A stretch of 64,000 bases of DNA, from assembly GCA_964016885.1 (NCBI GenBank), contig OZ024745.1:101308001-101372000 (forward strand), in the 5' to 3' direction. The first letter of the stretch is position 1, and every line of letters starts with the position of its first letter. The translations under genes and the position numbers were made by a program. Under the pieces are notes generated by a model. It did no database searches and had not been told where the DNA came from. It saw nothing but the letters and a program-made list of their open reading frames with translations. The DNA comes from Eledone cirrhosa. Taxonomy: Eukaryota. Below are positions 5,034 through 61,788 of the stretch, piece by piece.

Positions 5034-5174
5034 TGTGTAAGTAGAAGGGATATTTAATTTGTTGGAAATCGAACAAATATAAATGTTTATAACTGATTCA
5101 GAGCACTCGACAGTTTCTGGAGTAAATATTCAATGATATTAAATAAATGGAAACTATATTTATAAAACCATATT

Positions 5175-5237
5175 TATTCTATTATATATATTTCAAGGGT
5201 ACCTAAAAACTTTGGTACACTTTCATCAGATAAAATA
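5175..5237 (-). ncRNA. Type I hammerhead motif (family A)
   Basis: rc: UAUUUUAU-CUGAUGA-AAGuGUACC..GGUACcCUU-GAAA-UAUAUA-UA^-AUAGAAUA. Confidence 0.75.
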
Positions 5238-5369
5238 CAAAGAATGTTTTATAAATTTTGACATAGCCAAGGAAAATCATACCTTATCAGTTGAATATTC
5301 CCTGGGTAATATTCGACTGATAAGGTATGATTATCCTTGGCTATGTCAACATTCATAAAACACTCTTTG

Positions 5370-5432
5370 TATTTTATCTGATGAAAGCGTACCAAAGTGT
5401 TTTGGTACCCTTGAAATATATATAATAGAATA
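5370..5432 (+). ncRNA. Type I hammerhead motif (family A)
   Basis: Stem I UAUUUUAU/AUAGAAUA (8 bp, one G-U); CUGAUGA 5378-5384; stem II AAGcGUACCAAA/UUUGGUACcCUU; GAAA 5413-5416; predicted cleavage after 5424. Confidence 0.8.
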
Positions 5433-5719
5433 AATATGGTTTTATAAATATAGTTTCCATTTATTTAATATCAGTGAATATGTATATATGTATGTATTTT
5501 TTCTCGTGAGTCAGTTCTTTCGTTGCTACGGACCCCGCGGCGGTCGTTATATTCAATTTGCAAAGCCCTTTAAACTGTATGTTATTACTCTGAGGTCTAT
5601 ACCTTGTCGAGTGCTTGGCTGCTCTTCTGAATGCATTCGTCGGCTTAGCTGCGGCTCGAGCTTCGAATATGCTGTACTTCCATTTTTCTATATATATATA
5701 TATTATATATATATATGCG

Positions 5720-5771
<52 letters not shown>

Positions 5772-5773
<2 letters not shown>

Positions 5774-5880
5774 GGAAAATTTGAACAGGAACAAAACAGA
5801 GAGGCAGTACAACGAATGTTTATTAATTTCACGCTCTTGAGAGTGGGGTGGTGGTAAAACGTTTGAATTTGTAAAGCCAA
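5772..5880 (-). mobile_element. 3' end of a Penelope-like element, homologous to 49010-49085
   Basis: rc matches ccccactctc..gagcgtgaa..taataaacatt.gt.gtactgcctctctgtt..cctgttcaa. Confidence 0.6.
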
Positions 5881-6583: not shown

Positions 6584-8818
6584 CTACCCTACGAATTTTA
6601 CGTAGCAATGCCGGACTTATTCTCCGGTCTCCTGGAAGCGGTCTACTGCAACTGGCAACAGAATGGGTGAATTCACAGTTCTGTGACCGGGGGCGTAGTC
6701 ACACTAGTCAGGAAGGACGAGAATAAGGGGGATGACATAGGCAACTTCCGGCCCATAACTCTGCTAAACACAGAGTTACAGATTTTGGCCAAGGTGTTGG
6801 CAAAGAGGCTGGCGCTTGACGTCGAGAACCTGGTGGGAGAAGCGCAGACATGCGCTAGAGAGGGTAGGGTGTAAACCCGGCTTCGGTGGGGCCCTGATCA
6901 ACTTGGATCAGTCTAAGGCTTTCGATAGGGTTGACCATCGTTACCTGGATGCAGTGCTCGAGGCGGCAGGCTTCGGACCCGTGTTCAGGGGCTGGATTGC
7001 TGCAATGCATAGCAGCAACATCTGCTCAAGGGTTAAGGTGAACAGCTACCTCTCGGAGCCGTTCCATATCACGCGATCCATTCGACAGGGATGCCCTCTC
7101 TCCTCCCTTCTGTACGTATTGACTCTCGGGCCACTACTGCGGAGGTTGGAGCTATTGCAGGGCATCCCTCTGGAACCGGGACTGCGGAAAGCGGCGTCAG
7201 CTTACGCCGACGACGTAATGGTGTTGAGCGTCTCGCAAATCGAGGAAGTCGGCACCTTACTGAAGGAATACGAAAGGTTCACAGGAGCGAAGCTGAACCG
7301 GCACAAGTCCATCGGTTTGCAACTCGGATCGTGGAGAGGCAAACCGATGCCTTCCGATGGCATCGTCGGACGCTGGACAGAAGGACCAGTAAAGCTGCGC
7401 GGGGTCAGGTTTGGTCCGGACCTCCAGGTGGAGAAGAACTGGAACGAGGTGTCGGCCAAGGTGTTTGCACTCACCCAGAAGTGGGCCGAGTGCAAACTAT
7501 CCTTGAAAGGTCGAGCGGAGGTGGCAAACACTGTTATAGCGTCCGCCATCTACTACCGCTTGACCGTCGCGCCTTGTCTAGCCAAAACGCTCGCCAAAAT
7601 GGAGCGCGCGCTCTCCCAATTCCTTTGGAAGAGGCGGGCTCCTTTGGTGGGAAGATCCATCTGCTGCCAACGCCCTTCCAACGGAGGGCTGGGGATGCCG
7701 TGGCTGACGATGCGCAAAAACGGGCTCAGGCTGCGGCATCTCTACGTATTCCTCACCGGACAACCGGTGTGGGCCCCGTTCGTGAGGCGAGCCTTCCCAC
7801 GACTCGTCTCGCTGACCCAGCTGCAGTCCTGGGTCAAGCAAAGACCGAGGAAAATGGGCGACTGGTACATCGAATGTGCTCAGGCGCTCACAGCCTTCTG
7901 GCAAGCGGACCTGGCGATCGGTGGAGACTCCACTTCGTCATTCTATAGAGGGTTGATCCGCAGCAAGTGCGACGACGTGCTCGGTGAAACTCTAGGCGTA
8001 GAGGAAGACGAACTGGCCAGTCTGTTCGGTAGGACCTTCCACCCGGGACCGATGGACAACTTCCAAAAGTCCCTGGCCTGGCAGTGCTACCGAGGAGCTC
8101 TACCAGTTCGAGACAAGCTCTACAGACATGGGCGCCTGGGCAGGGACCCTGCAAAAAAGATCTGTCCGAGGTGCGTACGAGACGAAGAAACCGTCGCGCA
8201 CGCATTCATACACTGCTCGGGCGTTACCGACCTGTGGGGCTATGTAGAACGACTATTGTCGCGGGTGGGTCCGATCCAGTTGACCACCCAGTCCATTGTC
8301 ATGATCAAACCGCCACCCTCCTTCAAAAACGAAGGAGAGGCGGTTTTCTTTTGCGTGATAGCTATGGCGAAAGAGGTTGTATGGTGGAACAAGGTTGAAA
8401 GGGCTGAGGTCAGACACCTTTCTCTCCGGCCAACAACTGATTCTTTTTTTCAAATACCACTTTGGAAGAAGAATCAGGATGGAGAGAGAGGTGTTGTACC
8501 CCAACAAGTTTTATGAAAGGTGGGTGAAAGTGGCGAGAATGGCCCGAATGAATGGGCCTTCTCTCTATATCAGCCTGTAGGTTGAGGAAAAAGAGGAGGA
8601 GAGGAAAGGAGTACAAACTCTTCGTACTCCTGGAGATGAGGGTTGCACATTTTTTTTCGGGGGTATGTGTTACCCATATGTAATGTCTCCCCCTACTGGG
8701 GAAAATCGATTAACTTTTAAATTGCATTTGTGATAATATTTTACACGTTTTTATTATATGTAAACTTCCTCCTTTGTATTTCTCCCCTTCTTTGTGCCCC
8801 TGTGGCTAATAAAGAAAC
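6584..8818 (+). mobile_element. 5'-truncated L1/Tx1-clade LINE, ORF2 pseudogene (RT plus C-terminal zinc finger) with 3' UTR
   Basis: LPYEFY, NFRPITLLNTELQILAKVLA, LDQSKAFDRVDH, IRQGCPLS, YADD, GGLG, CPRC..ETVAHAFIHC; stop near 6668, deletion/frameshift near 6853, frameshift near 8390; 3' end gcccctgtggctaataaagaaa. Confidence 0.92.
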
Positions 8819-10300: not shown

Positions 10301-10557
10301 AGAGATTACAATAATCAAAGTTCAGTTTAAATCATTTATTTGCTTACAATTGTTTCCTCCAAACCGAGGTTTGGATTCTTCGGAGCAACTATTTAGTGAT
10401 CTATAACATACTTGACCTCCTTTTCAACACAAGAGACATATAAAAACATATGCATATATTGACCCACAGCATAGTTGCTCCGAAGAATCCAAACCTCGGT
10501 TTGGAACAAACAATTGTAAGCAAATAAATGATTTAAACTGAACTTTGATTATTGTAA

Positions 10558-10565
<8 letters not shown>
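10301..10565. mobile_element. Hammerhead-bearing fold-back (family C), about 90-bp inverted arms with about 80-bp spacer
   Basis: agagattacaataatc...ggagcaact (10301-10390) vs agttgctcc...gattattgtaatctct (10473-10562). Confidence 0.8.
10340..10388 (-). ncRNA. Type I hammerhead motif, U4C core variant
   Basis: rc: UUGCU-CCGAAGA-A-UCCAAAC cucg GUUUGGA-G-GAAA-CAAUUG-UA^-AGCAA-AUAAA; the mirror copy at 10475-10523 has lost GAAA. Confidence 0.65.
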
Positions 10566-13326: not shown

Positions 13327-13479
13327 GTAAGTAGTTGATTATGTATGCATTGTGATACGATACTTGACAAAGAATTACAGCTTAATTTTCCAGCTGAAGT
13401 GACTGAAACGACGTGAAATCTAACGCCTTGTTCAAGGATGCATCGCCAAGTGCTAACAACTCAGCCACACACCACCAGT

Positions 13480-13572
13480 GAGAGCCTATATAATAGTGCT
13501 ACTATTAAAAATCTTAACTTAAAACTATGTTAAGTTAAGATTTTTAATAGTAACACTATTATATAGGCTCTC
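13480..13572. repeat. Hairpin with about 41-bp arms, followed by an imperfect atatagagagggg tandem array to about 13950
   Basis: gagagcctatataatagtg..aatcttaactt / aagttaagatt..cactattatataggctctc. Confidence 0.8.
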
Positions 13573-14019
13573 ATATTGGTGGTAATTGATATAGAGAGGA
13601 AGGTTGGGAGAGTGTGTTGTATATTAGATATAGGCAGGGGAAGAGAATGATGTTTATTGATAAAGAGAGGGGATTAGAAGAGAGTTCCGTGTAGTAGATA
13701 TAGAGAGGGGGAGAGTTTGGTGCTAATTGATATACCAGAGGGGGATTGAGGGAGTACCGTGTTGTAGATATAGAGAGGGGTGGTGGTGCTAATTGTTATA
13801 GTGAGGGGGAATGGAAGAGAGTTCCGTGTATTAAATATAGAGAGGGGGAGAATTTGGTGTTAATTGATATAGAGAGGGAGTTAGAAAAGAGTTCTATATA
13901 GTAGATAAAGCGAGGGGGAGAGATAAGGGTTAATTGATACAGAAGAGAGTTCCGCGAAGAAGCTCGTTATATTAACCCCATAGGAAAGGGCGCATAACAT
14001 ATTTTTTTTTTATTTATAT

Positions 14020-17141: not shown

Positions 17142-17765
17142 GTCTAGATAGATGAAAAACAAAACGAGGATGTAGTTTATGGAACACCCAAATGATTTGG
17201 AAGTCGACCTTAAGTACGAGCAATAACATTAAGAAAGACATGAACGGCACCACATCATTTTGTATTTAAAATTTTGAAAGTAGGCTTATAAATATGAATT
17301 TTCAGTAGTTTTTCATTTCTGTCTCAGTGGCCTAACGGTAGGTATTAGAGATGGTGTAGATCCCGGTCTTAGGTTCGATCTAAGTCAAGAGATACATGTA
17401 ATCTTTTTCAGTTTTTATTTTACATCCCATAGAAAAAAAAATGAAAAGGTTTACCAGGAACCCTACTCCCAACCAGGATCGAACTTCAGACCAGAATCAC
17501 CACCACCTATGGTTCCTACAACTAGGCCGCCGAGAAAACTACAAAAGTATAATGAAAATTGATAATTATAAACCTACTTTCAAAAGGTGTGGTATCATTC
17601 ATGGCTTTCCTAGTGCTATTAGTCAAATTTAGGGTCAAATTGTCAATCTTCTGGCTCTTTGGTAGCAACCTTATTATTCCTATGTGTGTTTAACTGTTAA
17701 ATTAATTTAATCTAATTATTTTAACAAACAAATAAAATATATATATATATATATTTTATTTGTTT

Positions 17766-17802
<37 letters not shown>

Positions 17803-18134
17803 ATTGTTAAATAAATAAATAAATACATACACAAGCACAATAACAACAAGCACATAAACACACACTAGCCACCCATCACACAGCAAACAAAACACTATAC
17901 ACACACGCAAACGCATGCGCAAAGAAGACAAAATAAAATAAAATAAGCAAACAAGCAAATAAATAAATAAATATATAGACACACTGAATAAAAATGGCGT
18001 AGACATACAATACAACAGCAGGATAATATAACACCACTGACGATGTTGCAGATGTGCAACGAAAGATTTATGATAAACTATATATATGTGTTTGTGTCTA
18101 TATTGTATCTGTATTATTTTTGACCGTCGGTCAG

Positions 18135-18276: not shown

Positions 18277-18349
<73 letters not shown>

Positions 18350-18484
18350 AAGAGTTAAACACGATTCAATGATTACATCAAAGAATGGGTTTTAAAGAAT
18401 GAGTTTTACTGAAAAAATATTTTCCAGAGTTATTAATATTAAAATTCAAATATTAATATAATAGATGTTCTTGTGATTAATAAA

Positions 18485-18550
18485 ATTTTATTATACATAT
18501 TTCAGAGATACGTGAATCAGGTTCAACAGTACGTCCTCATCAGATAAAAT
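18485..18550 (-). ncRNA. Type I hammerhead motif in left pLTR
   Basis: rc: AUUUUAU-CUGAUGA-GGAcGUAC..GUAUcUCU-GAAA-UAUGUA-UA^-AUAAAAU. Confidence 0.7.
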
Positions 18551-19251
18551 AAAATGATACGTGACATACCCTGAGATGTTAGATGGTTAAGATTTAATCA
18601 AGGTAGTGATTAACTTATGAGAAAACTCAACATTTATACCCTAATAATGAGAACATGCGAAAACGTAATAGAATCAATAGAGAAGGTATGAGTAAGAAAA
18701 GCATTGCCTTAATGTAACAGTTATAGAGTTTTTAAAATCTGGGATACGACAAATTAGGATTATAGAGGAAGACGTCTCTGGAGTTATAATTTTATTAAAG
18801 TTATTGGCTTGAGACAGCCACTGATAGATAATTAAAGAGAGGGAGAGATAAAGGGGAGTAATTTATGCAAACATTTTCACATATAGACTTAGTGGTTAAA
18901 TTTCAAAATATTTAATTTATATTATTTTAGGGTAAAGAATCAAAATGTTAGGTTTTAAAAGTTGCAGGTTATCTATATACATTTTATAAATTTTATAAAT
19001 TTTATAAATGTGTTACATTTCTAAACTTCTAAGTTTTATGAAAACAAATTTAAAGGATTTACTAGGCCCGCGAAAGAAAAATATATACTGTTCAATATTC
19101 ACATAAAGGTAATCTTTAACAAAATGACTTGTAACAGTGTCAACATTTTCGGTATGTATAATTTATGAAGTACTTACTGTTACAAATATTAAGGAATTTA
19201 TTGTCAAGTAGATCATTGTCTAAAGTATAATAATTAACGCAGAGTTTTCAG

Positions 19252-19315
<64 letters not shown>

Positions 19316-20980
19316 GTGTGCATTTATCGTAATAAATTATTATTTATTATATTATATTAAATCACTATATTAGTTCTACCTTCGAGGGAAGAATGGACTC
19401 TAAATAATGATTATATTATTGTACAATATATATATATATTTGCACAAACCATATATAGTGTGATTAAGTTATTATACATTATTAACATAGATGCAAAAAA
19501 GTAAATGCAGAGATATACCTAACTATTAATATGATTATGTTATTATACAATATAAACAAATTTGCAAAAACTACATATAGAGAGATATACTAAGTATTAA
19601 TGATAACGGTTATAATCTTAGATAATAGATTCAAACATGCATAACTTAAATACATACATATATATAAAAAAAATGTAAACGCGTGAATGATCAACAGTTC
19701 AAAATAATGTCCTTAAAAATTTACAGGTTAGATATTTAAACTATATTTAAAACAGATATAGAAAAATAAAGATAGAGAGATAAAGGTATGGATCAAAGTT
19801 AATAATATCCATAAAACCATATGTTATGTATATCAGCGTGCCAGCATGTTATTAAACAAATATCATTCATTCAAACGTTATTTCCTTTATAGATGGTTAT
19901 AAGATAAAGCAATATTAAAGTTTTATAAGCCTTTAAGGTTTTCAACTGTTGATGTACGTCTAAAAACCAAGTTTGGTTGCTTACTGTTTTTCCGTGATCT
20001 TATGGGAGGCTTGGAATGTAGACAAGGCTTTATGAAGGCTGTTTGAGAATAATTCACTTTTTTTGTTAATTAAGTTCTCATAACTACTAACAATCAAAAG
20101 GGTCTCCATTGTACAAAGCGCGCAGTTACTTGATATACTTGAGTTGCGGTAAACACTATTACGAAGTTTCGTCCAAAAGATGGAGTATTTTAAATTCTTA
20201 TCTTTTAATCTAACCACGGATGAAATTGATATCATACTAACAGCTAGAACAACTCTTATTAACTTCAACAATGAGTATTGGACCCGCTCAGATAGAAATA
20301 GAAACTTTGATATTACTATGGGGGCATCCGATTTTGCGCAAATCACATATCTTCTGGGAATTTTCATATTAAATATGATAAATAGAAAACTGCCGGAGAT
20401 TGCCGGTGGTTTATATAGGGACGACATTTTATTTACGGTGGTCAAACACAAAAATATTGAACTAAATAGAGTAAAGAAAAGTATAATAGAATTCTTTAAA
20501 ATGTATGACCTTAAGTTAGAAGTAGAAAATGGTACAAAAATAGTTATAAAATTAATATAAATAACCTGCAACTTTTAAAACCTAAAATTTTCATTCTTCA
20601 CCCTAAAATAACAAATTAAATATTTTGAAATTTAACCACTATGTCTATATGTGAAAGTTTTTGCATAAATTACTCCCCTTTATTTCTCCCTCTCTTTAAT
20701 TATCTATCAGTTGCTGTCTCAAGCCAATAACTTTAATAAAAGTATACCTCCAGAGACGTCTTCCTCTATAATCCTAATTTGTAGTATCCCAGATTTTAAA
20801 AACTCTATAACTGTTACATTAAGGCAATGTTTTTCTTACTCATACCTTCTCTATTGATTCTATTACGTTTTCGCATGTTCTTATTATTAGGGTATAAATG
20901 TTGAGTTTTCTCATAAGTTAATCACTACTTTGATTAAATCTTAACCATCTAACATCTCAGGGCATGTCATGTATCATTTT

Positions 20981-21046
20981 ATTTTATCTGATGAGGACGT
21001 ACTGTTGAACCTGATTCACGTACCTCTGAAATATGTATTATAAAAT
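20981..21046 (+). ncRNA. Type I hammerhead motif in right pLTR
   Basis: CUGAUGA 20988-20994, GAAA 21028-21031, stem I AUUUUAU/AUAAAAU; cleavage triplet is AUU, so probably inactive. Confidence 0.6.
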
Positions 21047-21085
21047 TTAATTGATCACAAGAACATCTATTTTATTAATATTTGA

Positions 21086-21165
<80 letters not shown>

Positions 21166-27164: not shown

Positions 27165-27998
27165 GTTTAGGCACAGAGCCAGCAATTCTGGAGGAGGGGA
27201 AAGTCGATTATATTGATCCCATTTCCCTACTGGTATTTTATTTAATTGACACCCAGTGGTTGAAAAGCAAAGTTGACCGAGACGGGATATGTACTCAGAC
27301 CGTAGAAAGTCGTAATTAAGTAGCGCAAAGCATTTTGTTCGACGCCATACCGATACTGCTACCCCAGGGGTAGTGGAAGCATTTCTGAATTGATGGGGGA
27401 TGGGTCAGTTCAGTTGTAGTGATTAGTTTAGCTGTTATTATCAAATATCAACCAAGACATTTAAAAAAAACAATTTCGATATGCGATAAACATAACATGT
27501 ACATAAATTGTAGTGCTTATACAAATAGATGCGTTTTGGTAGTTTGGTAATTGTTCCCCACCCAAACCTCAGTTCCACGGCCCATGAACCATAAAGTTTA
27601 CTATAGAAATGAGAGAAAAAAATTCATTAATACAATACAGAATAATTGTTTCTACTTTTGGAGCAAGGCCAGCAATCATCCCAGCGCATTACTGGTATTT
27701 TATCTTATCGATCACGTAAGGATGAAAGGCAAAGTTAACCTCGACGGGATTTGAACTCAGAATGGCAGGGGCCGTAACTCTATGCGTCAAAGCATGGTGT
27801 CCGACTAGAATAATTGTTTCTACTTTTGGCACAAGGCCAGCAATTACCCAGTGCATTGCTGGTACTTTCTTTTATCGACCGCGTAAGGATGAACGACAAA
27901 GTTAACCTCGGCGAGATTTGAACTCAGAATGGCAAGGGCCGTAACTCTATGTGTCAAAGCATGGCGTCCGACCCTCTACCGATACTGCCAATCCATCG
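27165..27998 (-). mobile_element. Three SINE copies plus a MITE (27365-27586)
   Basis: Family consensus at 27165, 27642 and 27810; duplicated gtgt.cgactagaataat at about 27797 and 28003. Confidence 0.8.
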
Positions 27999-29335: not shown

Positions 29336-29925
29336 ATACTTGAAGTGTAGCCCATCGCTACTGGGCAATTTTCATCATAGACTGCCTAACTAAGTGTGTA
29401 TAATGGACCTGATGCAAAGTCAGGTCGTCGGAGACCAACCAAGCAACTCCACCAAATGTGTTTGGAGAAGAGGAGGATTTCTGGGCAGCTTGCGGAAGTA
29501 ACGCGTGAGATACGGTGGCTATCCTTTAATGTGCTTATATTTGTATATTTATATATTTATTGAAATCTGCAGTATTTGTAATCTCTAGCTATCTTGTTTT
29601 GTTTAGACAGTAGCTTTCATATCACACAAGTATTTATCACTATACAATCTAATGTATAGGCAATTAGATTTGCGCCCATATTTGTTTAACTCTCGCTCCG
29701 CTCAGCGCAAGTACGCACACAGACTTCTTGGTGTCACATATGGACGGCAAGCCTCCGAGTTACTGAAGTATCACTGTTGTCTCGTGGTTTATAATATATG
29801 TTAGTTTTTAGGCAAATAATCTATTTTGCTTGGTCGCTGCCAACATGTCTTTTTTTTTTTTTTTTTTTTCATGTAGTGACATGTCAGTTGATTGGTCACT
29901 GCCCCATTGTCTGATCTCTGAGATA

Positions 29926-30818
29926 CGAGGTGTGTCAGAAAAGTTCCAGGACTGATGTCACAAAAGATTTATTTCAAACCCAAATTTCACACTAAGAGTT
30001 TTCTCCTTCAAAGTAATCCCCCTGGAGTCTAGTGCACTTTTCCATCCTTTTCTGCCATGCTTGCATGCACTCCTGGAAGGATTCTTCCGGGATCCTCCGC
30101 AGTTCCGTCGTCACGGCCTTCTTTGATGTCGTCCACGTCTTCAAAACGGGTCCCCTCCGGGTCGTACTCGAAGATCCATGACTCATCACCGGTGATGACT
30201 GTCCCTAGCAAGTCTGGTTCGGTTTCAAGACACTCGAGGATGTCCTGGCACACTTGCTTGCGTCGACCCTTCTGGTCATCGTTCAGAAGTTTTGACACCA
30301 TCTTCGCGCAGACTTTCCGCATGTCCAAATCTTCAGTGAGAATCTTCCTGATGCTGTCCCGATTCATGCCCAGCTCATTTGCCATCAGTCGAACAGTCAG
30401 CCGACGATCGCTACGCACCATCTGCCTGACGCGCTCAACGTTGACCTCAGTCCTGGTTGTTGAGGGCCTTCCGCTCCTCGGGTCAACTTCCACGTCCTCG
30501 CGTCCTTCTTTAAACCTCTTGCACCACTCAAAAACGCGTGAGTGTAACATCGTCTCATCTCCATACACTTGCTGCAGCGTTGTTTTCCCCAACCGTACCA
30601 TAAACTTCAAATTTGTTCGTTGCTCTGTGCTCATTGCTTGACGACCTGAAACAGAGGACATGTATATAAAATTATGAAGAAAAAAGTTTGATCGCTGCAG
30701 AGAGCTAAGATTACAGTTACATACTCCAGAGGGATTACTTTGAAGGAGAAAACTCTTAGTTTGGGTTTGAAATAAATCTTTTGTGACATTAGTCCTGGAA
30801 CTTTTCTGACACACCTCG
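29926..30818 (-). mobile_element. Internally deleted mariner (Tc1/mariner) with extended TIRs
   Basis: TA flanks at 29924-25 and 30819-20; TIR cgaggtgtgtcagaaaagttccaggact..; HTH region VFEWCKRFKEGR..DPRSGRP, KVCAKMV, ITGDESWIFEYDPE fused to GTRF...GDYFEG; most of the DDD domain is missing. Confidence 0.92.
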
Positions 30819-30824
30819 TACATA

Positions 30825-31210
30825 ATATATCGAATAACGTTACTCCAAAGACTCTTCTGAGGAACCTCATTCCGGCCGCTTGTATACAGGATCGTATTCT
30901 TTAGGTAATTACGCAAGATTCATAACCATAGGTAATGGTTGGTGCGAATAATGAATAGAAGATAGTGTGTTCTGATGACCGAATACTGAAGATGGTGCAT
31001 TACTCCACTATCTCCTGCAATTCTTGCACTTAATTCAGCTTCCCACCTTCCCTCGCCCGTGAACACGGCCCTTTTCTTCCCCTGCTTCAGTGGAACTCCA
31101 TTCACATGTAGAGTGCACTGTGCATGGTTCCTTGAGAGGATGAGTGTCTCAGTTTTCGCAGGAGTGATTTTCATTCCAGCTATGCACCATTCGGCATCAA
31201 ACCTATCTAG
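30825..31210 (-). mobile_element. RTE-like LINE fragment next to the mariner
   Basis: GMKITPAKTETLIL..., MRFLRRVFGVTLFD. Confidence 0.7.
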
Positions 31211-31865: not shown

Positions 31866-32363
<498 letters not shown>

Positions 32364-38340: not shown

Positions 38341-38745
38341 AATAATAGTAAATATGTAATCTTGCACCGGAATGTCTTGTATTTAGTTGGGATAAGAGTG
38401 TTTTTGTATAATTTCATTGTTTTGAAAAACAAAACCAAAACAAACAAGTTTCAGCACTGAATTACTTTTTACTATGTAGCAGCTAGAAATGTAAAAATAT
38501 TAAGGATTAAATAATTTTTTTTAAATTATGAACTCCCTCTCAGCTTTTGTTGTTGTTGTAACTAGAGTATGGTTGTAGACATAAAGGAAAAACAGCTTTA
38601 AACATAAATACGATTTGATATCTTTTTAATAAATAAATCGAAATATTTATGTGTGTGTGTGTGTGAATACACACAAATATATATATATCAATAATATTAA
38701 TAAATGGAAGCTATCTTTATAAAAACATATTTATTTTATTACATA

Positions 38746-41498: not shown

Positions 41499-41515
41499 TT
41501 ATATATTTTATTATA

Positions 41516-41576
41516 TATTTCATTGTATATATTTCAAGGGTACTAAAATTTTGGTACGCACTCATCAGATAAAATA
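41516..41576 (-). ncRNA. Degenerate family A hammerhead
   Basis: rc: UAUUUUAU-CUGAUGA-GUGcGUAC..GUACcCUU-GAAA-UAUAUA-CA-AUGAAAUA; U16.1 changed to C. Confidence 0.55.
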
Positions 41577-42789
41577 CAAAAGTTGGTTAACAGATAGTGA
41601 CATATTCAGACAAGAACTTAATGTTGTGAGTTCTATTTGAATAGTGAACAAAACTTTAAAACTCAAGATGAATATGTTAATGAGGATAACCGTTATGTTT
41701 AGACGCTAGGTAAATTTAAATAATTATTAGGATTATTTTTTAATAAGGAAAGGAAATATTATTAGGGTGGAAGAAAATTTAAGGAAAGATTTTAAGAAAA
41801 AAATATTAAAGCTACTAACAGAATATTTATGTACGTATATAATAGTCCGGAACGTATTTGCAAGGGTGTAGGGAGAATGAAATAATTATATTTATTTTTA
41901 TTTATTTAATTATTTAATTATATATTTTGGAAGTGTTTACCATATAACATGTGAATTATAAATAAATGTGTTAAAGTGAAAGGATATTAATTCATACATA
42001 TTTACACACACACAGATACATACATTTTTATATGTGTGTGTGTGGAATGGACCAACGTAGATTTCGACGATGAGTATTCTAGTTGTTTGATCAACAGAAC
42101 AGCCTGCTCATGAAATTAACATCTAAGTGGCTGAGCATTTCACAGTCACGTGCACCCATAACGTTAGAGATATTCTGACCTAGCTGGATTTTCATCAAGA
42201 GGTGTGTATATCATCTAAACGATCACAAGGAAGCACGTATAAATGGGCTTATATACATATAGCAAGCTACTTTCCTTTGGCGCATTGATACCCTTTCCGT
42301 ACGTTGTTTGGCTGAGTTGAGCCAATCGCTATCAGCGTAGGGATATGTATCTCAACTTCCGCCCAAATGGAGAAATTCCTGCTTCTTCTAATAAATTAAT
42401 TCTCTTGCAAATTGACCTTGCTAAGGTAAACAACCATTTGCTTTTGCTCCGCAAACATCATTCCAATATGTAACTACAAAACATTACCGCGGCCTGGTTT
42501 CTCCCTTCAGCCACTGGACCCTGTCTTCTCTTACAGATCTTAATTTGTTTGTTCATTTCTTTTGGCATGACAACCAACCAACCAGCCAACCAATCAAGCT
42601 TAATACAGCTCTTTTCACCTTAAACATTGTTAATAAATTCTGTTACAACGAACTACAAATTGGCGTCAACATTATGTTATCTTACTTCTACAATCCTCCA
42701 CTACTGTAATGGAGTAGGGACAATTCATTTAAGCCACTACTTAAAATCACTTCATCGGATATTCATGATTGATTAGTAAAACAGAGAAT

Positions 42790-46549: not shown

Positions 46550-47570
46550 GACAGAATTCTGGTCCTCAGGATGTCGGCTTCCTCATCGAGACTTTCGCCG
46601 ACACCCGTCACACAATCTCCGGTTAGAGACAACCGTTCTCCTGACTGCTTGGAATTTGAATCTGATGCACTATGAATTGTTTTCGTAGCAGGAGAGTTTT
46701 TCCGGGAACAGGTCGCTGACCTGAAGCCCAACCACTGACATTTAGTAAAGAGGCAGTAAATGGAGTTGTCTCTGGTAGAACTGCAAACCGATGGCCACGC
46801 AATATGGTGTGGGTCGCCTTCAGTCCTGGACCGGTGCCGAGGGAGGATTTCCTTCTGCTTTAACCAGTGGCTTCCTTGTTGAAGCTCATACGCCTAGTGG
46901 TGCCGTGTCAACACCACCCCCTCACGTGGTTCAGTTCACCAGCTGAAGCGGTGTGCCGGGGCATGGCGCTTGGAACCACACGTGAGAAATTTAGGGGATG
47001 GGTGAGGGCCGGTGATGACTGACCACCCTACCAGTTACGGTGCAGCTGTCAAACATCAAGGGCACTACCTCTGCCCAAGCCCCCTATGCCCCTAAGATGA
47101 GACTCTACAACAGCAACATGCTGTCAACACTCTTGTACGGAAGTGAAACATGGCACCTTAAGACCAGCCAAGAGAAGAAGTTGGACGCATTCGATTCCAG
47201 ATGTCTGCGAAAGATCCTGGGGATTAAATGGAGTGACCATGTAACAAACCAGGAAGTCAGGAACCGCACCAACCAGCAGCTAGTCTCTTCTACCATCTGC
47301 AAGCGACGCCTGGGCTGGTTTGGACACGCTTTGAGACTTCCCCCGGAGAGACTGGCGAACCAAGTACTTAAATGGAGCCCGCAGGGAAGCAGACGGAGAG
47401 GGCGACCCCCAATATGAACTGGCGCCAGACAGTTGAGAGGGACCTGCGAGCGACAAACAGACAATGGCGGGACGCTGTGCAACTGGCTGCTGACCGAACG
47501 CGGTGGAACACTATGATTGCCTCATGCATCGCAAGACGCGAAGCTTCTGAGTCTGAGTCTGAGTCTGAGT
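46550..47570 (+). mobile_element. RTE element 3' end with (GAGTCT)n tail, preceded by a GC-rich putative 5' UTR
   Basis: LLYGSETW..RCLRKILGIKWSDHVTNQEV..RRLGWFGH..RRRGRP, frameshift, DRTRW; tail 47549-47570. Confidence 0.8.
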
Positions 47571-47573
47571 GTG

Positions 47574-47693
<120 letters not shown>

Positions 47694-47717
47694 CATATAT
47701 ATAGATATATATACATA

Positions 47718-48270
47718 TGTATTAGAATTGGTGCTCTGAAATAGCGATATATATATATATGAATGTATATATAGTGTATTTTGCAATACACTGTATGCTT
47801 AATTAAAAGCATTTTGAAGACCTTATGCTGAAAATAGAAGTAAGTGACATTGTCACTACTTTAAAACAATAGCGTAAGGTCTTCAAAATGCTTTTAATTA
47901 AGCATACACTGTATTGCAAAATACACTATATACACATTCATATATACACCGCTATTTCAGAGCACCAATTCTAATTTTCAATTTTTGCTGGACCGGCAAC
48001 CGCTCTGTATAATCAGTTCCTGATTATTACTGGAATTCTATAAGAATCCAACATTCATAATTTTCGGCAAACAGGAGGAGTGCTGAGCTTTGATAAGTAC
48101 CAACAAGTACGAAACAGAGCTCTGTCAGCTTATCTCCCCTTATTTGCTGAAAATTGAAGTAAATGACATTGTCACTACTTTAAAACAATAGCGTAAGTCT
48201 TCAAAATGATTTTAATTAAGCATACAGTGTATTGCAAAATACACTATATATACATTCATATATATGTGTA
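47718..48270 (+). mobile_element. Retrozyme/PLE-like element: about 320-bp tandem unit plus inverted 5' arm, in (TA)n
   Basis: Direct repeat 47826-47945 / 48146-48265; 47721-47829 is the rc of 47871-47975. Confidence 0.8.
48059..48155 (+). ncRNA. Extended type I hammerhead with U3-A8 core
   Basis: UGAGCU-UUGAUAA-GUAC caacaa GUAC-GAAA-CAGAGCUCUG-UC^-AGCUUA; stem I extends via AGGaGGAG/CUCCCCU and AAUUUUCGGCAAA/UUUGCUGAAAAUU. Confidence 0.8.
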
Positions 48271-48284
48271 TATATATATATATC

Positions 48285-49086
48285 TCCTCTTCCGACCACC
48301 GCTTCTTGGATTACCCACACGCGTTTTGACTTCCAACCAAAATCTCCATACATCCGTGTAACTTACCACTTTTCAACCATCCTCTAACACCATCACCTAT
48401 ATAACTCACCCACACACACATCCCAAAACAAATTTTTTTATCCACACGCCACCCACACCCACAACACGCTTAAACCACACACACGTGCTTCCCACCACAT
48501 ATTTATACCCTCAGCCCCCTGATTCCTCTCCCCCCACCCCCTATCCACACACGCACAGACCCTCCGACACACAAAAACACCCCCCACACACACCTTCCTG
48601 AACATGCAACCCCGTTCTTCCCCCAACCCTCACTTTCACATACACACACACACACACACACGCACACCTAACCACACACACCACCTTCAGCCCTCCCCGC
48701 TCGGACACCCCGTCTCCCTCTCCCCACTCCACCCGCCTCCACCTCTACTCACCCCACACCCTTCCACCACCTGTTTACCCCCCTTTTAATTTCAGTTTAT
48801 TTTGATCATGCCTTTATTTTTAAATGTTCTCATTCCTTGTATTTTGATCAAGCTTTATTTTTATTTATTATTTATTATATTTTTGTCTTTATTTGTTAAT
48901 TTTTCATTCGCACCGTTTCCTTTCGCTATATGTCTCTCCACCACTCCCCTACACACCTTTTGAACTCTTACCTGAAGAAGGGCTTATGCCCGAAACGTCG
49001 TCCTCCACCTACCCCCCACTCTCCTGAGCGTGAATCTAATAAACATTTGTCGTACTGCCTCTCTGTTCTGTCCCTGTTCAATTTTT

Positions 49087-49090
<4 letters not shown>
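48285..49090 (+). mobile_element. Penelope-like 3' end with partial hammerhead (48972-49002)
   Basis: CUGAAGA-A-GGGC uuau GCCC-GAAA-CGUCGUC, stem I not paired; AATAAA near 49038; ends in (TA)n. Confidence 0.6.
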
Positions 49091-51302: not shown

Positions 51303-52501
<1,199 letters not shown>

Positions 52502-53104: not shown

Positions 53105-53795
53105 TCATGATGACAAAATAATGATTTCTAGTATATACACAAGGCCAGTAATTTGGGTTGAGGGGAAAGTCGATTAAATCGACACCAGTACGTTACTGGT
53201 GCTTTATTTTTAGCAACCCCTGTAAGGATAAAAGGCAAAGCTAACCTCGGCGAGATTTGAACTCAGACCGTAAAGCGGCGTAACTCTATGCTGCAAAGCA
53301 CGGCATCCGACCCTCTACCGATACTGCTAATCCAACGCCTTCATGATGACAAAATAATGGTTTCTTATATAGGCACAAGCCCATCAATTTTGAGGGAGGG
53401 GAAAGTCGATTAAATCGGTCCCAGTGCGTGACTGCTACTTTATTTTATTGACCCCGTAAGGATGAAAGGCAAAGATAACCTCGGCGGGATTTGAACTCAG
53501 ATCATAAAAGGCCGTAACCCTATGCTGCAAAGCATGGCGTCCAACCCTCTACGGATACTGCCAATCCACCGCTCTCAATGTTGACAAATTAATGGTTTCT
53601 GGTTTAGGCACAAAAACAACAATTGTGGAGAAGGGTAAAGTCGATTAAATCGACCCCAGTGCGTTACTACCACTTTACTTTATCGACCCCGTAAGGATGA
53701 AGGACAATGCTAAACTTGCGAGATTTGAAATCAGAACTTATATAACAATGCCGCGAAGCATGGTGTCTGGTGCTTTACCGGTACTGCCAATCCAC
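53105..53795 (-). mobile_element. Three tandem SINE copies separated by a duplicated 19-bp target
   Basis: tcatgatgacaaaataatg at 53105 and 53341, variant near 53575. Confidence 0.85.
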
Positions 53796-55497: not shown

Positions 55498-58400
55498 AGG
55501 GGTCGAGAAAATAAAGCACCAGTAACGTACTGGTGTCGATTTAATCCCATTCAAATTGGTAGCCTTGTGCCTATAGTAGAGATCAGTGGATTGGCAGTAT
55601 CGGTAGAGGGTCGGATGCCATGCTTTCCAGCATAGTTACGTCCCTTAACGATCTGAGTTCAAATCCCGCCGAGGTTGACTTTGCCTTTCATCCTTACGGG
55701 GGTCGATAAAATAAAGTACCAGTAATGCACTGGGTAATTGCTGGCCTTGTGCCAACAGTAGAAACAATTATTACTATTATTATTAACTTTCGATAAAATA
55801 AAGTACCAGTAATGCACTGAGGCGATTGCTGGCCTTGTGCCAAAAGTAGAAACAATTATTGTTAGTAGTAGTAGTAGTAATAATAGTATTCATCAAATCG
55901 CATTCCAATTTCACAGTTAGCCGTAAATCAAATTACATTGTCATCCTTCACTAAACTTAAAACTTCGTAAATGAGACGATAGTATGAGATAAATATTTAA
56001 TTTGTTTGCTATTGATGTGATACTTGTTCTTAAATATACTTGAATAACACACGTGCCTTATTCCTACATAACTAGGAAGTTAACATATATGTACGTGAAC
56101 AAATGATTGGGTGTATAATACTCAATACAAATTTCATTTGAAAGCACTCAAAGAATGTGTTGGATGCTGTGTATGTGAGAAGGTGAAAAATAAATTAAAG
56201 AGAAAAAAGTTACGTTAAACCATGATATGCATACATAGCATTTTGATAAAGAAACAAGTAGAGAATCTGATCAAAGTTAAATTAAATCACAATAGTTATT
56301 TGTATTGATGGGGAAAGAAATTACTTAGTTTAAAATGAAAGGTTTCCAGCTCCCTGAAGATTGATGGAAATTAAAATTAAGCTATGGGAAATTCTCTTTT
56401 AAAAGGAAATACAATCATTAGATGAATATTTACAAAGAAAATTGCCTTCTTTAGAGTCGTAGTAAATAAAGTATTGAATGTTCAAGTCATTTGAAGGTGA
56501 AATATTTATCTGATTTAGTAAAAGACCGATGGTTTGTGTTAATTTTCTCCTTCGCTTAAAAATGCTGTTGAAAAACTTTAAATGTATAGATTGTATGGTG
56601 TGAGGATTGTAAGTCAAGAGAATTCGCTTATATTTGTTCATTCATTTGTTTTGTTAAAAATTGTTTCTACGTTTGGCACAAGGCCAACAATTTTTGAGGG
56701 AGGTGATAGTCGATTAAATCGACCTTCAGTGCGTTACTGGTACTAGATTTTATCGACCGCGTAAGGAAGAAAGGCAAAGCTAACCTCGGCAGGATTTGAA
56801 CTTAGAACGTTAAAGAGCCGTAACTATATACCGTAAAACATTTTCTCCGACCCTCTACCGATCCACCACCCTTGTATTGTTAATAATGGCTTCTTATATA
56901 GACACAAAGTCAACAATTTTGGGGGAGGGGAAAGTCGATTAAATCGACCCCAGTGCATTACTGGGACTTTATTTTATCGACCCTGTAAGGATGAAAGGCA
57001 AAGTTAACCTCGGCGGGATTTGAGCTCAGATCATAAAGAGGCGTAACTCTATACTGCAAAGCATGACATCCGACCCTCTACCGACACTGCCAATCCACTA
57101 CCCTTGTATTGTTAATAATTGTTTCTACTTTTGGCACAAGGCCAGCAATTACCCAGTGCATTACTGGTACTTTATTTCATCGACCCCGTAAGGATGAAAG
57201 GAAAAGTTAACCTCGACGGGATTTGAACTCAGACCGTAAAAGTACGTAACTATGCTGGAAAGCATGGCGTCCGACCCTCTGCCACCCTTTAAAAAGTAGA
57301 AGAATAGAAATTTTAGAAAGGCGGAAAAGTGCCATGCACCATTTACTTATGTCCTTTATATACTGAGTTAGAATCCAGCTGAAGTTCAGTTTGTTTCTCA
57401 TCCTTCTGTGATCGGGGTTTAGATCCACTGTTGTTTCCTCCAAAATGTGTGGAATTGTGCCTATGTAAATAAACATCCATGATAAATACATTCCTTGCTC
57501 TGTGTTGTATCTAACGGATAAATAGCGGAATCGGTTGAGCGTCGGACAAAATACCTTGTTATTGATAAAATAAATTTTCCAATCAGCTGTTATCGATCCA
57601 CTGCACGTTATTATCGACTTGCTGGTTGTATGATTATCTGTTCAAGGTGAACGATTCCAAGTTGGATGGGTTGCTCTCGTGGTCGAGAGCCAAGGCCTTG
57701 TCACTAACAGTCAAATACCAGTCGATAAACTGGTATGAGTATTAGCCACTATACCATAGAAAGGGATATACGTAAAAAGAATGAAAGAATTTTTTTGTCA
57801 CCTTCTTTAATATTCTTTGAATCTTTTCTTCATTCTATTATTTTATTACTTTTCGTCTTTTTACAATAAAAACTTAACTGACTGTTGCTTTAGGGCATTG
57901 TTTCGAAACTTTATCTGTATTTCCCTCCTGTTCATTATCTTGTTTCACCACCTCGCACGATAAGAAAAGAAGTAGTCTTGTGGCAGTATCGGTAGAGGGT
58001 CGGACGCCATGCTTTCCAGCATAGTTACGTCCCTTTACGATCTGAGTTCAAATCCCGCCGAGGTTGACTTTGCCTTTCATCCTTACGGGGTCGATAAAAT
58101 AAAGTACCAGTAACGCACTGGGTAATTGCTGGCCTTGTGCCTAAAGTAGAAACAATTATTACGAAGGGAGGGGGATTGGCAGTGTCGGTAGCCGGTCGGA
58201 CGCCATGCTTTGACGCATAGAGTTACGGCCCTTGCCATTCTGAGTTCAAATCCCGCCGAGGTTAATTTTGCCTTTCATCCTTACGGGGTCGATAAAAGAA
58301 AGTACCAGTAATGTACTGGTATAATTGCTGGTCTTGTGCCAAAAGTAGAAACAATTATTACAAACATCGAGGGCGGTGAACTGGCTGTATTGGGCACAAC

Positions 58401-58742
58401 ATGCTTTTCGGCTTGTAGTTTTCTCTTTAGGTTCTGAGTTCAAATCCAATCGCGGTTAGCTTTGACATTCAGCTTTACGGGGTCGATAAAATAAAGTATT
58501 AGTAATGAACTGAGGTCGATTTAATCGACTTTTCCCTCCAGAAAAGTGGTTGGCCTTGTGCCTAAACCTGACACTATTATTACATAACATGCTTTGACGT
58601 ATAGAGTTACGGCCCTTGCCATTTTGAGTTCAAATCCCGCCGAGGTTAACTTTGCCTTTCATCCTTACGGAGTCGATAAAATAAAGTACCAGTAATGCAC
58701 TGGGTAATTGCTGGCCTTGTGCCTAACGTAGAAACAATTATT
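55498..58742. mobile_element. SINE-dense zone: plus cluster 55498-55860, minus trimer 56658-57282, plus tetramer 57980-58742
   Basis: Family consensus; repeated linkers ccttgtattgttaataat and attattacataacat. Confidence 0.85.
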
Positions 58743-59624
58743 ACATAACATTAGAAGTCATACATCAATTTTACAATATCATCATCATCATCCTTAAAAT
58801 CTACGAAAAGGAAAATATATCTAGTAAAAACAGTGCAAAAAATTATTTAAAAAATTCTCCTACTGGAACACCAGATTTTCCCGTGGTTAAGGATTGTGAC
58901 TTTAAAGAACCGTATTTAGTGCTATTAATAACTTCTGGACAAAAAGCACAGGGAATTCATCGTTCATTCAAATAATTTATATTTGTTGGTGTCTGATTTG
59001 ACTGCGTTTAGCTATAGGCATACATATGATCAAATAATTTAAGCCGTAACCATCCGTCTTTTTGTATACTTGGCTAATATTTTTTCCTCACCATATGAGC
59101 TTAAATGTCACCCGAATTAAATATGTTAAAACTAAATATACTTTACAGTCAATACCAGAGACTGTCCCAAGTTTCCTGGTATCGACGGAATTGATCCCAG
59201 TGCAACGACAACAAAGTTGCTTACTGGAAAAGGAAATACGAAATTAACAGGGAAAGTTAAGAAAAAAAATAATAATTAGCATTAGCCTGGCAGATACCCA
59301 ATTTCATAAATAAAATCAGGATAACATTTTTTAGCCATTCTTTGTGCAAGAAAGGAGGTCTTTTATGCCATCAAATGCGCTATCTAATTTCGGGTTTCTC
59401 GTACGGAATTGAGTAAACAACATTGCTGTCACTCCATGCAAATGAAGCAAGACTTAAAGCAGAACAATTAAGGATTACAGAAAAGAGAGAAATAAAACCT
59501 GTTATTTTGATGGCTGCTACAATAGTGCTATTAAGTACGCGTGTTTTGCCCTGCAATTTATAAGCAGTATCAGGAAAAGAGGTCGATAAAATTTCATTAT
59601 TACTGTTTTAATTCTTCACATAAA

Positions 59625-59977: not shown

Positions 59978-59983
<6 letters not shown>

Positions 59984-60350
59984 GATATTAATAAATGGAA
60001 ACTATATTTATAAAACCATATTTATTTCATTATACATATTTCAGGGATACCAAATTAAATTATGGTATGCCTTCATCAGACAAAATACAATATATAACAG
60101 TTTTACAAATAAGCTTTGACGTACCCTATTAAAATGCAACCATTATTTTTGGAAGCCATCCGGAAGGCATACCATAATTTAATTTGGTATCCCTAAAATA
60201 TGTATAATGAAATAAATATGGTTTTATAAATATAGTTTCCATTTATTAATATCGTATATCTACTCCAAATACTTGTCGAGTGCTTTATATCAGTTATAAA
60301 AATATTTACTTGTTGTATCCCAACAATTTTAAATAGAACTTTTGCATATA
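59978..60350. mobile_element. Family A-related fold-back between (TA)n tracts
   Basis: 59980-60074 is the rc of 60163-60258; tail ttgtcgagtg shared with family A. Confidence 0.8.
60023..60087 (-). ncRNA. Type I hammerhead motif (family A-related, covarying stems)
   Basis: rc: UAUUUUGU-CUGAUGA-AGGcAUACCA..UGGUAUcCCU-GAAA-UAUGUA-UA^-AUGAAAUA. Confidence 0.78.
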
Positions 60351-61332: not shown

Positions 61333-61788
61333 GGTGGATTGGCAGTATCGGTAGAGGGTCGGACGCCATGCTTTCCAGCATAGTTACGTCCCTTTACGAT
61401 CTGAGTTCAAATCCCGCCGAGGTTGACTTTGCCTTTCATCCTTACGGGGTCGATAAAATAATGTACCAGTAATGCACTGGGTAATTGCTGGCCTTGTGCC
61501 TAAAGTAGAAACAATTAAATTAGCATTTTATGAGTTGGAAATTATTTCTTTTTTATATTAAATAATTGATATTCATAGTTTCAATCTGTGTAGGTACTAC
61601 GTAATTGTTTCTACTTTAGGCACAAGGCCAGCAAAAACCCAGTGCATTACTGGTACTTTATTTTATCGACCCCGTAAGGATGAAAACAAAGTCAACCTCG
61701 GCAGGATTTGAACACAGATCGTAAAGGGACGTAAACTATGCTGGAAAGCATGGCGTCCGACCCTCTACCGATACTGCCAATCCACCAC
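61333..61788. mobile_element. Two SINEs tail to tail (+ 61333-61517, - 61602-61788)
   Basis: Family consensus; TSD gtgtaggtactac(g/a)taat around the second copy. Confidence 0.88.

What the first reader, a model, noticed from the sequence alone, without database searches (positions are those of the whole stretch)
47718..48270. About 320-nt permuted tandem unit around the U3-A8 ribozyme (retrozyme-like)
Seen: sequence downstream of the ribozyme (48146-48265) recurs upstream (47826-47945), giving a period of about 320 bp. An inverted arm (47721-47829) caps the 5' side, and both ends run into (TA)n. Inference: the layout fits reverse transcription of a circular or multimeric RNA followed by a fold-back template switch.
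Basis: partly seen in the sequence, partly recalled or inferred. Interest (0 to 1): 0.7.

Follow-up and report, generated by a model that had tools for sequence, protein, structure and literature searches.

The report
Hammerhead retrozyme bearing Penelope insertion scars
This is likely a small, protein-free jumping RNA (a hammerhead-ribozyme 'retrozyme') copied into a TA microsatellite, and its ends match the insertion scars of Penelope-like retrotransposons, which points to the enzyme that probably moves such RNAs.

Summary
The layout is real. A 128-bp direct repeat (47821-47946 / 48138-48264, 94% identical, period 317-319) flanks one type I hammerhead with a U3-A8 core (core 48090, cut site after 48126). 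A 109-bp inverted arm (47721-47829) sits at the 5' side, and both ends lie in (TA)n. The direct part covers 1.4 units and crosses an intact cut site, so if it was reverse-transcribed the template was longer than one unit (circle or uncut multimer). The best reading is a monomer-type copy of a non-LTR retrozyme inserted by Penelope-like element (PLE) machinery. The inverted arm runs 29 nt further 3' than the direct end, which matches the published PLE 'tail'. Three other hammerhead-bearing inverted insertions in the window show the same one-sided tail, and there a fold-back cannot make it. So priming from both target strands fits better than the proposed fold-back. The direct arm stops 11 nt from the cut site, which leans to a linear multimer over a circle. 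Retrozymes, U3-A8 cores and the PLE link are all published. No second copy of the unit was found, so the 318-nt unit rests on one locus. Interest 0.38.

The parts
47574..47720 (.). (TA)n microsatellite, upstream flank and likely insertion target
47721..47829 (-). Inverted 5'-truncated copy, unit positions +167 back to +64 counted from the cut site; about 47721-47749 is the 29-nt tail absent from the direct 3' end
47821..47829 (.). Inversion junction: 5-nt exact microhomology (47821-47825), 8 of 9 bases if a 2-nt gap is allowed
   Evidence: 0.9% of random junctions in this unit share 5 nt or more
47821..47946 (+). First copy of the repeated segment (+12 to +138), with several predicted hairpins and an internal TA run at its 3' end
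47947..47975 (+). Tail template (+139 to +167), between the two inferred reverse-transcription start sites
   Evidence: PLE tail as described
47976..48059 (+). Single-copy segment with predicted short hairpins
   Evidence: z -2.1, 5 of 200 shuffles as good
48060..48155 (+). Type I hammerhead with extended helix I: core 48090-48096 (U3, A8), helix II 48097-48110 with 6-nt loop, GAAA 48111-48114, 12-nt palindromic helix III 48114-48125, predicted cut after 48126, proximal helix I 48084-48089 with 48127-48132
48138..48264 (+). Second copy of the repeated segment; the element's 3' end falls in the internal TA run
48265..48285 (.). Short interrupted TA run, downstream flank
48286..49089 (+). Neighbouring, separate PLE-type 3' end with a minimal hammerhead (48972-48999), ending in (TA)n at 49090; context, not part of the unit

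Best explanation
This is likely one retrotransposed copy of a 318-nt non-coding hammerhead RNA (a non-LTR retrozyme), probably inserted into a (TA)n microsatellite by the reverse transcriptase-endonuclease of a Penelope-like element. Shown by sequence: one hammerhead motif, 1.4 units crossing an intact cut site, an inverted arm with a one-sided 29-nt tail, a 5-nt junction microhomology, TA flanks. Inferred steps: (1) a source array elsewhere is transcribed and only partly self-cleaved, giving multimers and probably circles; (2) the PLE enzyme nicks both strands of (TA)n; (3) the bottom strand primes internally at the RNA's own TA run (+138) and copies back through the uncut ribozyme to +12, close to a ribozyme-cut 5' end; (4) the top strand primes at +167 and copies to about +64; (5) the two cDNA ends anneal at the microhomology and are repaired. 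I put the template at about 60:40 for linear multimer over circle. With one ribozyme, this copy would cut once at most and could not release a unit-length RNA or circle by itself.
For: Hammerhead has canonical metazoan dimensions (helix I 6 bp plus internal loop and distal stem, helix II 4 bp; definition in PMC4209133), whereas the 7 other cores that the scan found in the window lack such GUC-ending 12-nt helix III. Unit length 318 and GC 34-35% lie in the published retrozyme range of about 170-400 nt, GC <50% (PMC7229834). The unit folds far better than shuffles as a circle (z -6.2 and -6.7, 0 of 200 each) and also without the ribozyme (47837-48059, z -4.5, 0 of 200). Partial tandem, adjacent inverted 5'-truncated copy, 30-40 bp one-sided tail and (TA)n targets are published PLE hallmarks (PMC8557442); a purified PLE protein cuts and extends both target strands and starts at two internal RNA sites that bound the tail (PMC11167929). 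In this window 3 of 3 other hammerhead-bearing inverted insertions (5040-5484, 18348-21088, 59983-60345) carry a tail of about 83-95 nt on the inverted arm only, and a fourth copy (31893-32182) ends at the same tail end as the 5 kb one. A 6-mer in the single-copy segment is complementary both to the tail and to the ribozyme (58 of 5000 shuffles, chosen after seeing it), weak support that the unit evolved as one RNA.
Against: No second copy of the unit in the 64 kb, so the period is seen once. No sequence similarity between the unit and any of 7 PLE-type ends in the window (14 comparisons, each reached by at least 12 of 100 shuffles), so the partner element is not identified. The tail is 29 nt here against 83-95 nt in the window's comparators. 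The comparators' PLE identity is itself inferred: the decayed RT-like frame at 20153-20557 gave no Pfam hit, no homologue and only an RVT_1 lead at score 0.89. The catalytic fold is predicted to be rare: about 1e-5 of the ensemble in the monomer; the double hammerhead is the minimum-energy fold for two isolated ribozyme fragments but only 1.6e-7 in an in-silico two-unit tandem, tertiary contacts not modelled. Differences among the three copies do not discriminate: the inverted arm sides with copy 1 at 2 sites and with copy 2 at 2 sites. No target-site duplication can be read in (TA)n.
Confidence: 0.6

Rival explanations
1. It is a heavily 5'-truncated partial tandem of a longer PLE or pLTR family. 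The reverse transcriptase copied the 3' end through the ribozyme, jumped to a second RNA at its tail end, and the 318-nt period is an accident of where it jumped. No 318-nt RNA exists (though such an event could be how a retrozyme is born).
For: Partial tandems are the normal PLE form. One ribozyme, no second copy. The upstream copy starts 11 nt from the cut site, as a cleaved PLE RNA would. U3-A8 cores occur in schistosome PLE ribozymes (PMC4209133).
Against: Metazoan PLEs carry minimal hammerheads, retrozymes canonical ones, and this one has canonical dimensions. The non-ribozyme part is strongly structured (z -4.5), whereas the two short segments tested 3' of minimal hammerheads in the window are not (z +0.3 and +1.2). 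No frame of 100 aa or more lies within the unit.
Confidence: 0.2
2. One reading: one cDNA laps a circular RNA, then folds back at the microhomology and copies itself for about 105 nt before joining the upstream DNA.
For: Same microhomology is used; the whole inverted arm is present in the direct part here; circles are the main form of retrozyme RNA in coral, mussel and axolotl; the 5 kb comparator has a nearly symmetric hairpin-like centre.
Against: It does not explain why the arm ends one tail-length beyond the direct 3' end, nor the three comparators whose tails are missing from the direct arm. At 2 of 4 informative sites the arm matches copy 2 rather than the adjacent copy 1, though later mutation can explain that.
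Confidence: 0.12
3. A simple ribozyme-bearing insertion was later duplicated and inverted at the DNA level by microhomology-mediated repair next to a fragile (TA)n tract.
For: Long (TA)n flank; microhomology at the junction; local direct and inverted repeats are common in the window.
Against: It needs two separate events that happen to give a retrozyme-sized period, a 5' end beside the cut site and a PLE-sized tail; similar low divergence among the three copies fits one event.
Confidence: 0.05
4. The same RNA was inserted by a LINE (RTE or L1 type) with twin priming rather than by a PLE.
For: A LINE-like 3' end with a (TCTGAG)n tail abuts the left flank (RTE assignment recalled, no Pfam hit); twin priming gives inverted 5' parts (PMC2837659, abstract start only).
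Against: No poly(A) or LINE-type 3' repeat on the unit; the 3' end is internal to the unit; the one-sided tail is described as not seen for non-LTR elements.
Confidence: 0.03

Closest known systems
Metazoan non-LTR retrozymes (Cervera and de la Pena 2020, PMC7229834; coral, mussel, axolotl)
   Same: Canonical type I hammerhead in a non-coding, AT-rich, self-paired unit of 170-400 nt; head-to-tail repeat; more-than-unit cDNA expected.
   Different: Only 1.4 units and one ribozyme at this locus; U3-A8 core; 12-nt palindromic helix III; the monomer is predicted to fold into a self-blocked form, whereas that paper predicts most metazoan circles leave the ribozyme free; inverted arm and tail are not described for retrozymes in the parts I read.
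Retrozymes as non-autonomous PLE derivatives (Li, Clavereau, Pollet 2026, bioRxiv 10.64898/2026.07.22.740005)
   Same: Proposes exactly the PLE dependence inferred here; recognises monomer copies.
   Different: Its evidence is co-occurrence and pLTR similarity in vertebrates; here it is insertion anatomy, and no similarity to the window's PLE ends was found. This locus fails their 'active' criterion of two units with ribozymes.
EN+ Penelope-like elements (Penelope/Poseidon, Neptune, Naiad; PMC8557442, PMC11167929, PMC4209133)
   Same: Partial tandem, adjacent inverted 5'-truncated copy, one-sided tail, (TA)n target, type I hammerhead about 90-170 nt upstream of the 3' ends; U3-A8 known in schistosome PLEs.
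   Different: No RT or GIY-YIG frame; canonical rather than minimal hammerhead.
Rfam Hammerhead_HH9 (RF02275)
   Same: Type I topology, same helix II and loop II size, internal loop in helix I.
   Different: 24.5 bits, below the gathering score of 52; U3-A8 core; longer palindromic helix III.

Membership tests
Type I hammerhead ribozyme | Conserved core with 3-8 pair, GAAA, NUH cut site, helices I-III with open helix I | tested here: met
   U3-A8 is a natural, active covariation (PMC3088659 passage)
Type I hammerhead ribozyme | Self-cleavage | not testable with these tools
   Folding puts the active form about 6-7 kcal/mol above the ensemble without tertiary contacts
Rfam HH9 (RF02275) | Score at or above gathering threshold 52 | tested here: not met
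   24.5 bits; not filed as HH9
Non-LTR retrozyme | Canonical type I hammerhead in a 170-400 nt unit, GC <50% | tested here: met
   318 nt, GC 34-35%
Non-LTR retrozyme | Non-coding | tested here: met
   No stop-to-stop frame of 100 aa or more inside the unit; those nearby run through (TA)n
Non-LTR retrozyme | Highly self-paired predicted circle | tested here: met
   z -6.2 and -6.7, 0 of 200 shuffles each; 61-62% of bases paired
Active non-LTR retrozyme array (Li et al. criterion) | Two or more consecutive units each with a ribozyme at the locus | tested here: not met
   1.4 units, one ribozyme; this locus is filed only as a monomer-type copy
Non-LTR retrozyme | Many dispersed copies and tandem arrays in the genome | not testable with these tools
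   Only 64 kb of this genome was available; no other copy in it
Non-LTR retrozyme | Expressed as unit-length linear and circular RNA | not testable with these tools
   No transcript data
Non-LTR retrozyme | Target-site duplication when present; no PBS or PPT | tested here: inconclusive
   TSD unreadable in (TA)n; PBS and PPT not searched
PLE-type insertion | Partial tandem with adjacent inverted 5'-truncated copy | tested here: met
PLE-type insertion | 30-40 bp tail at one end only | tested here: met
   29 nt, up to about 36 nt given the ambiguous end in the TA run
PLE-type insertion | AT-rich or (TA)n target | tested here: met
Autonomous PLE | RT plus GIY-YIG frame | tested here: not met
   not filed as an autonomous PLE
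Derivative of an identified PLE pLTR | Sequence similarity to a PLE terminus | tested here: inconclusive
   None to 7 PLE-type ends in the window; the rest of the genome and repeat libraries were not available

The most novel reading that the evidence does not exclude
A new retrozyme family whose genomic copies directly record PLE-driven insertion: two fixed internal start sites 29 nt apart around an AC-loop TA hairpin, priming from both target strands, and a template that is an incompletely cut linear multimer rather than the circle assumed in current models. Its U3-A8 ribozyme would be switched off in the monomer by pairing of its own palindromic helix III with helix I, a self-pairing block that PMC7229834 thought absent from most animal retrozyme circles.
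Probability: 0.25. Interest if true: 0.6.

Novelty: new member of a known kind. Interest (0 to 1): 0.38.

Why it matters
Which reverse transcriptase moves animal retrozymes is open: a 2020 review says their repeats show no motif that identifies the partner (PMC7761336 passage), and the 2026 preprint argues for PLEs from co-occurrence and pLTR similarity. If right, this locus shows that insertion anatomy (fixed 3' ends, one-sided tail, inverted arm, position of 5' ends relative to the cut site) answers both that question and circle versus multimer from genome sequence alone. Each ingredient is already published and this is one locus, so the gain is a sharper test, not a new kind of element.

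Tried and rejected
Other copies: blastn of 47700-48290 against the window gave only TA-run matches outside the locus. No match in 50,697 phage records or 72,556 plasmid records at E 0.01. A ribozyme-core pattern in bacterial and archaeal genomes gave 6 loci; 6 of 6 lie inside a 408-aa open frame, lack helices I and III, and match the unit only at the pattern: chance. These collections hold no animal genomes, so they say nothing on copy number. Rfam microRNA and snoRNA hits at the locus come from TA runs or the long helix I and are far below gathering scores. Pol III SINE reading: no A or B box by four recalled patterns, and five runs of 4-5 T on the + strand. Activation by dimerisation: favoured for two isolated ribozyme fragments (-78.9 vs -74.4 kcal/mol) but not in a two-unit tandem (1.6e-7 of the ensemble, against 1.9e-10 for two independent active monomers); left open. 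Copy differences as a test of fold-back: 2 sites each way. Similarity to the window's PLE-type ends: none. Classifying the RT remnant at 20153-20557: no result, lead only. Co-integration with the neighbouring element at 48286-49089 could not be told from independent insertion into the same microsatellite. The paper on dimer-cleaving PLE hammerheads (PMC5785218) is not held; I saw only its title in a reference list.

Full report
Setting. The window is an AT-rich, microsatellite-dense animal-type sequence (GC 25-48% per 2 kb; 110 tandem-repeat rows). Its repeat landscape reminds me of an octopus genome; that is recall and was not tested.

Observation. blastn and pairwise alignment give a direct repeat 47821-47946 / 48138-48264 (93.75%, 128 columns) and an inverted arm 47721-47829 equal to the reverse complement of 47871-47975. 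The left flank is (TA)n 47574-47722; the right flank is a short interrupted TA run. Outside this locus the window holds no other copy of the unit. The finding is confirmed, but it is 1.4 units with one ribozyme, not an array.

The ribozyme. Rfam has no hit at gathering score in the window. In a local search Hammerhead_HH9 matches 48072-48148 at 24.5 bits, E 2.7e-4. My descriptor finds the core at 48090-48096 with U3 and A8, helix II of 4 bp with a 6-nt loop, a perfect 12-nt palindrome as helix III, the cut after 48126 and a 6-bp proximal helix I that extends to 48060/48155 (z -5.06, 0 of 200 shuffles). Hits of this strength averaged 0.01 per window in 100 shuffled windows. These are the canonical metazoan dimensions given in PMC4209133. 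U3-A8 is not new: natural and active covariation in PMC3088659, and about 1,300 hits in Schistosoma PLE-related motifs. Nearest-neighbour folding puts the ribozyme in a blocked fold in which the 5' strand of helix I and part of the core pair with the first half of the palindrome; the active form is about 1e-5 of the ensemble. Two isolated fragments co-fold best as a double hammerhead, but an artificial two-unit tandem does not (1.6e-7). Tertiary contacts and magnesium are not modelled and I ran no known-ribozyme control, so activity and its regulation are open.

The unit. Cut to cut it is 318 nt, GC 34-35%, and folds as a circle at z -6.2 and -6.7 for two contiguous windows (0 of 200 each; the minus strand also scores, z -4.2 and -4.5). 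Without the ribozyme it still scores z -4.5 (0 of 200); sub-segments score -3.7, -2.1 and -1.7, and two short segments 3' of minimal hammerheads elsewhere score +0.3 and +1.2. No frame of 100 aa lies in it. No Pol III boxes were found by recalled patterns. This matches non-LTR retrozymes as described in PMC7229834.

The ends. Counting from the cut site, the direct part runs +12 to +318 then +1 to +138; the inverted arm covers +167 back to +64. The direct part crosses an intact cut site, so an RNA template must have been longer than one unit. Its 3' end falls in a TA run that belongs to the unit. The inverted arm carries 29 nt more at its 3' end. The arms meet at a 5-nt microhomology (0.9% of random junctions). 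PMC8557442 lists partial tandems, an adjacent inverted 5'-truncated copy, a 30-40 bp tail at one end and (TA)n targets as PLE hallmarks. PMC11167929 shows a PLE protein cutting and extending both strands of AT-rich DNA, starting at two internal RNA sites in an AC-rich stem-loop that bound the tail, and using uncut RNA. Here the direct end lies at a predicted TA hairpin with an AC-containing loop, a resemblance only.

Internal comparators. The scan found 8 distinct hammerhead cores in the window; a looser pattern on 8 chosen regions found 3 more. Three insertions have hammerhead-bearing or hammerhead-adjacent arms in inverted arrangement: 5040-5484, 18348-21088 and 59983-60345. In 3 of 3 the direct arm ends in or beside a TA-rich run and the inverted arm carries a further 83-95 nt found nowhere in the direct arm. 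A direct copy of the 5 kb family, 31893-32182, ends at the same tail end. A cDNA folding back on itself cannot copy sequence it lacks, so these need a second priming on RNA. In the finding the tail happens to be present in the direct part, so fold-back stays possible, but the same mechanism is the simpler reading. That these comparators are PLEs is inferred from minimal hammerheads (describes such inverted pairs) and an RT-like remnant that no search confirmed. The unit shows no similarity to 7 of 7 PLE-type ends tested.

Circle or multimer. The direct arm stops 11 nt from the cut site. With an even spread over 318 positions that is about a 4% event (noticed after the fact). It is expected if the RNA's 5' end was ribozyme-made, as in a partly cut dimer; dimers and trimers are seen in axolotl. 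Stalling at helix I on a second lap of a circle could also do it. I put this at 60:40. The same fact fits the main rival, a truncated PLE partial tandem made by a template jump. Against that rival: canonical ribozyme, structured non-ribozyme part, and a 6-mer in the single-copy segment complementary to both tail and ribozyme (58 of 5000 shuffles; the two pairings taken singly are not significant, 1688 and 712 of 5000). The three copies differ at 4 informative sites, 2 each way, which does not separate the models.

Elsewhere. No relatives in phages, plasmids or prokaryote genomes; these hold no animal genomes.

Literature seen. bioRxiv 10.64898/2026.07.22.740005: parts 1-3 of 5, supplements not seen. 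PMC7229834: parts 2-4 of 6, supplement unreadable. PMC11167929: parts 1-2 of 4. PMC4209133: parts 1-2 of 4. PMC8557442, PMC3088659, PMC7761336, PMC8969392: passages only. Eight searches listed no paper whose title or abstract start describes a cephalopod retrozyme or a tail and inverted arm on a retrozyme; subscription journals, repeat databases and unseen supplements may.

Verdict. A real, well-formed feature: most likely a monomer-type retrozyme copy with PLE insertion scars (0.6). It works like a non-LTR retrozyme; it is not an active array by the two-ribozyme criterion, and family-level membership waits on copies elsewhere. New member of a known kind, interest 0.38.

Noticed in passing
window 48286-49089 (+): PLE-type 3' end directly beside the finding: C/A-rich stretch, minimal hammerhead at 48972-48999, ends in (TA)n; its last 87 nt match 5761-5848 (-) at 87.5%. 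Independent insertion or co-integration not resolved.
   Followed up: partly
window 5040-5484, 31893-32182, 41512-41604, 59983-60345, 38694-38741: A family of short PLE-type ends with minimal hammerheads; inverted arms carry an 83-91 nt tail; the 5 kb copy has a nearly symmetric centre at 5302-5305; the 32 kb copy has a 32-bp tandem duplication (32044-32105) at the upstream start site.
   Followed up: partly
window 18348-21088: Decayed PLE-like element with 560-bp inverted arms, minimal hammerheads at 18543 (-) and 20988 (+), an RT-like remnant at 20153-20557 and (TA)n at both ends; clade not determined.
   Followed up: partly
window 47019-47570 (+): 3' end of a LINE-like element (RTE type by recall; no Pfam hit) with a (TCTGAG)n tail running into the same (TA)n tract as the finding.
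   Followed up: partly
window 27639-27972, 53105-53735, 56646-57283, 58023-58745, 61333-61786: An abundant 170-235 bp SINE-like repeat occurs as head-to-tail arrays of 2-4 units and as an inverted pair, without a hammerhead hit in my scan; possibly another non-autonomous element with PLE-like insertion forms.
   Followed up: no
window 51419-52501: 331-bp direct repeat with period 643 plus a 112-bp inverted pair (51866-51977 / 52390-52501) and a doubtful hammerhead-like core at 51628.
   Followed up: no
window 6768-8516 (+): 582-aa reverse transcriptase frame (RVT_1 E 9e-15, zf-RVT E 4e-6), a non-LTR retrotransposon fragment.
   Followed up: partly
window 10301-10562, 13471-13583, 17272-17585: Further long inverted repeats with no hammerhead core in a loose scan.
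   Followed up: partly
window 18037-18070 (+): Isolated minimal hammerhead with a 6-bp helix II, unrelated by blastn to the adjacent element.
   Followed up: no
window 30029-30919 (-): Transposase-like frame between 105-bp inverted repeats (29924-30028 / 30723-30820); mariner type by recall.
   Followed up: no
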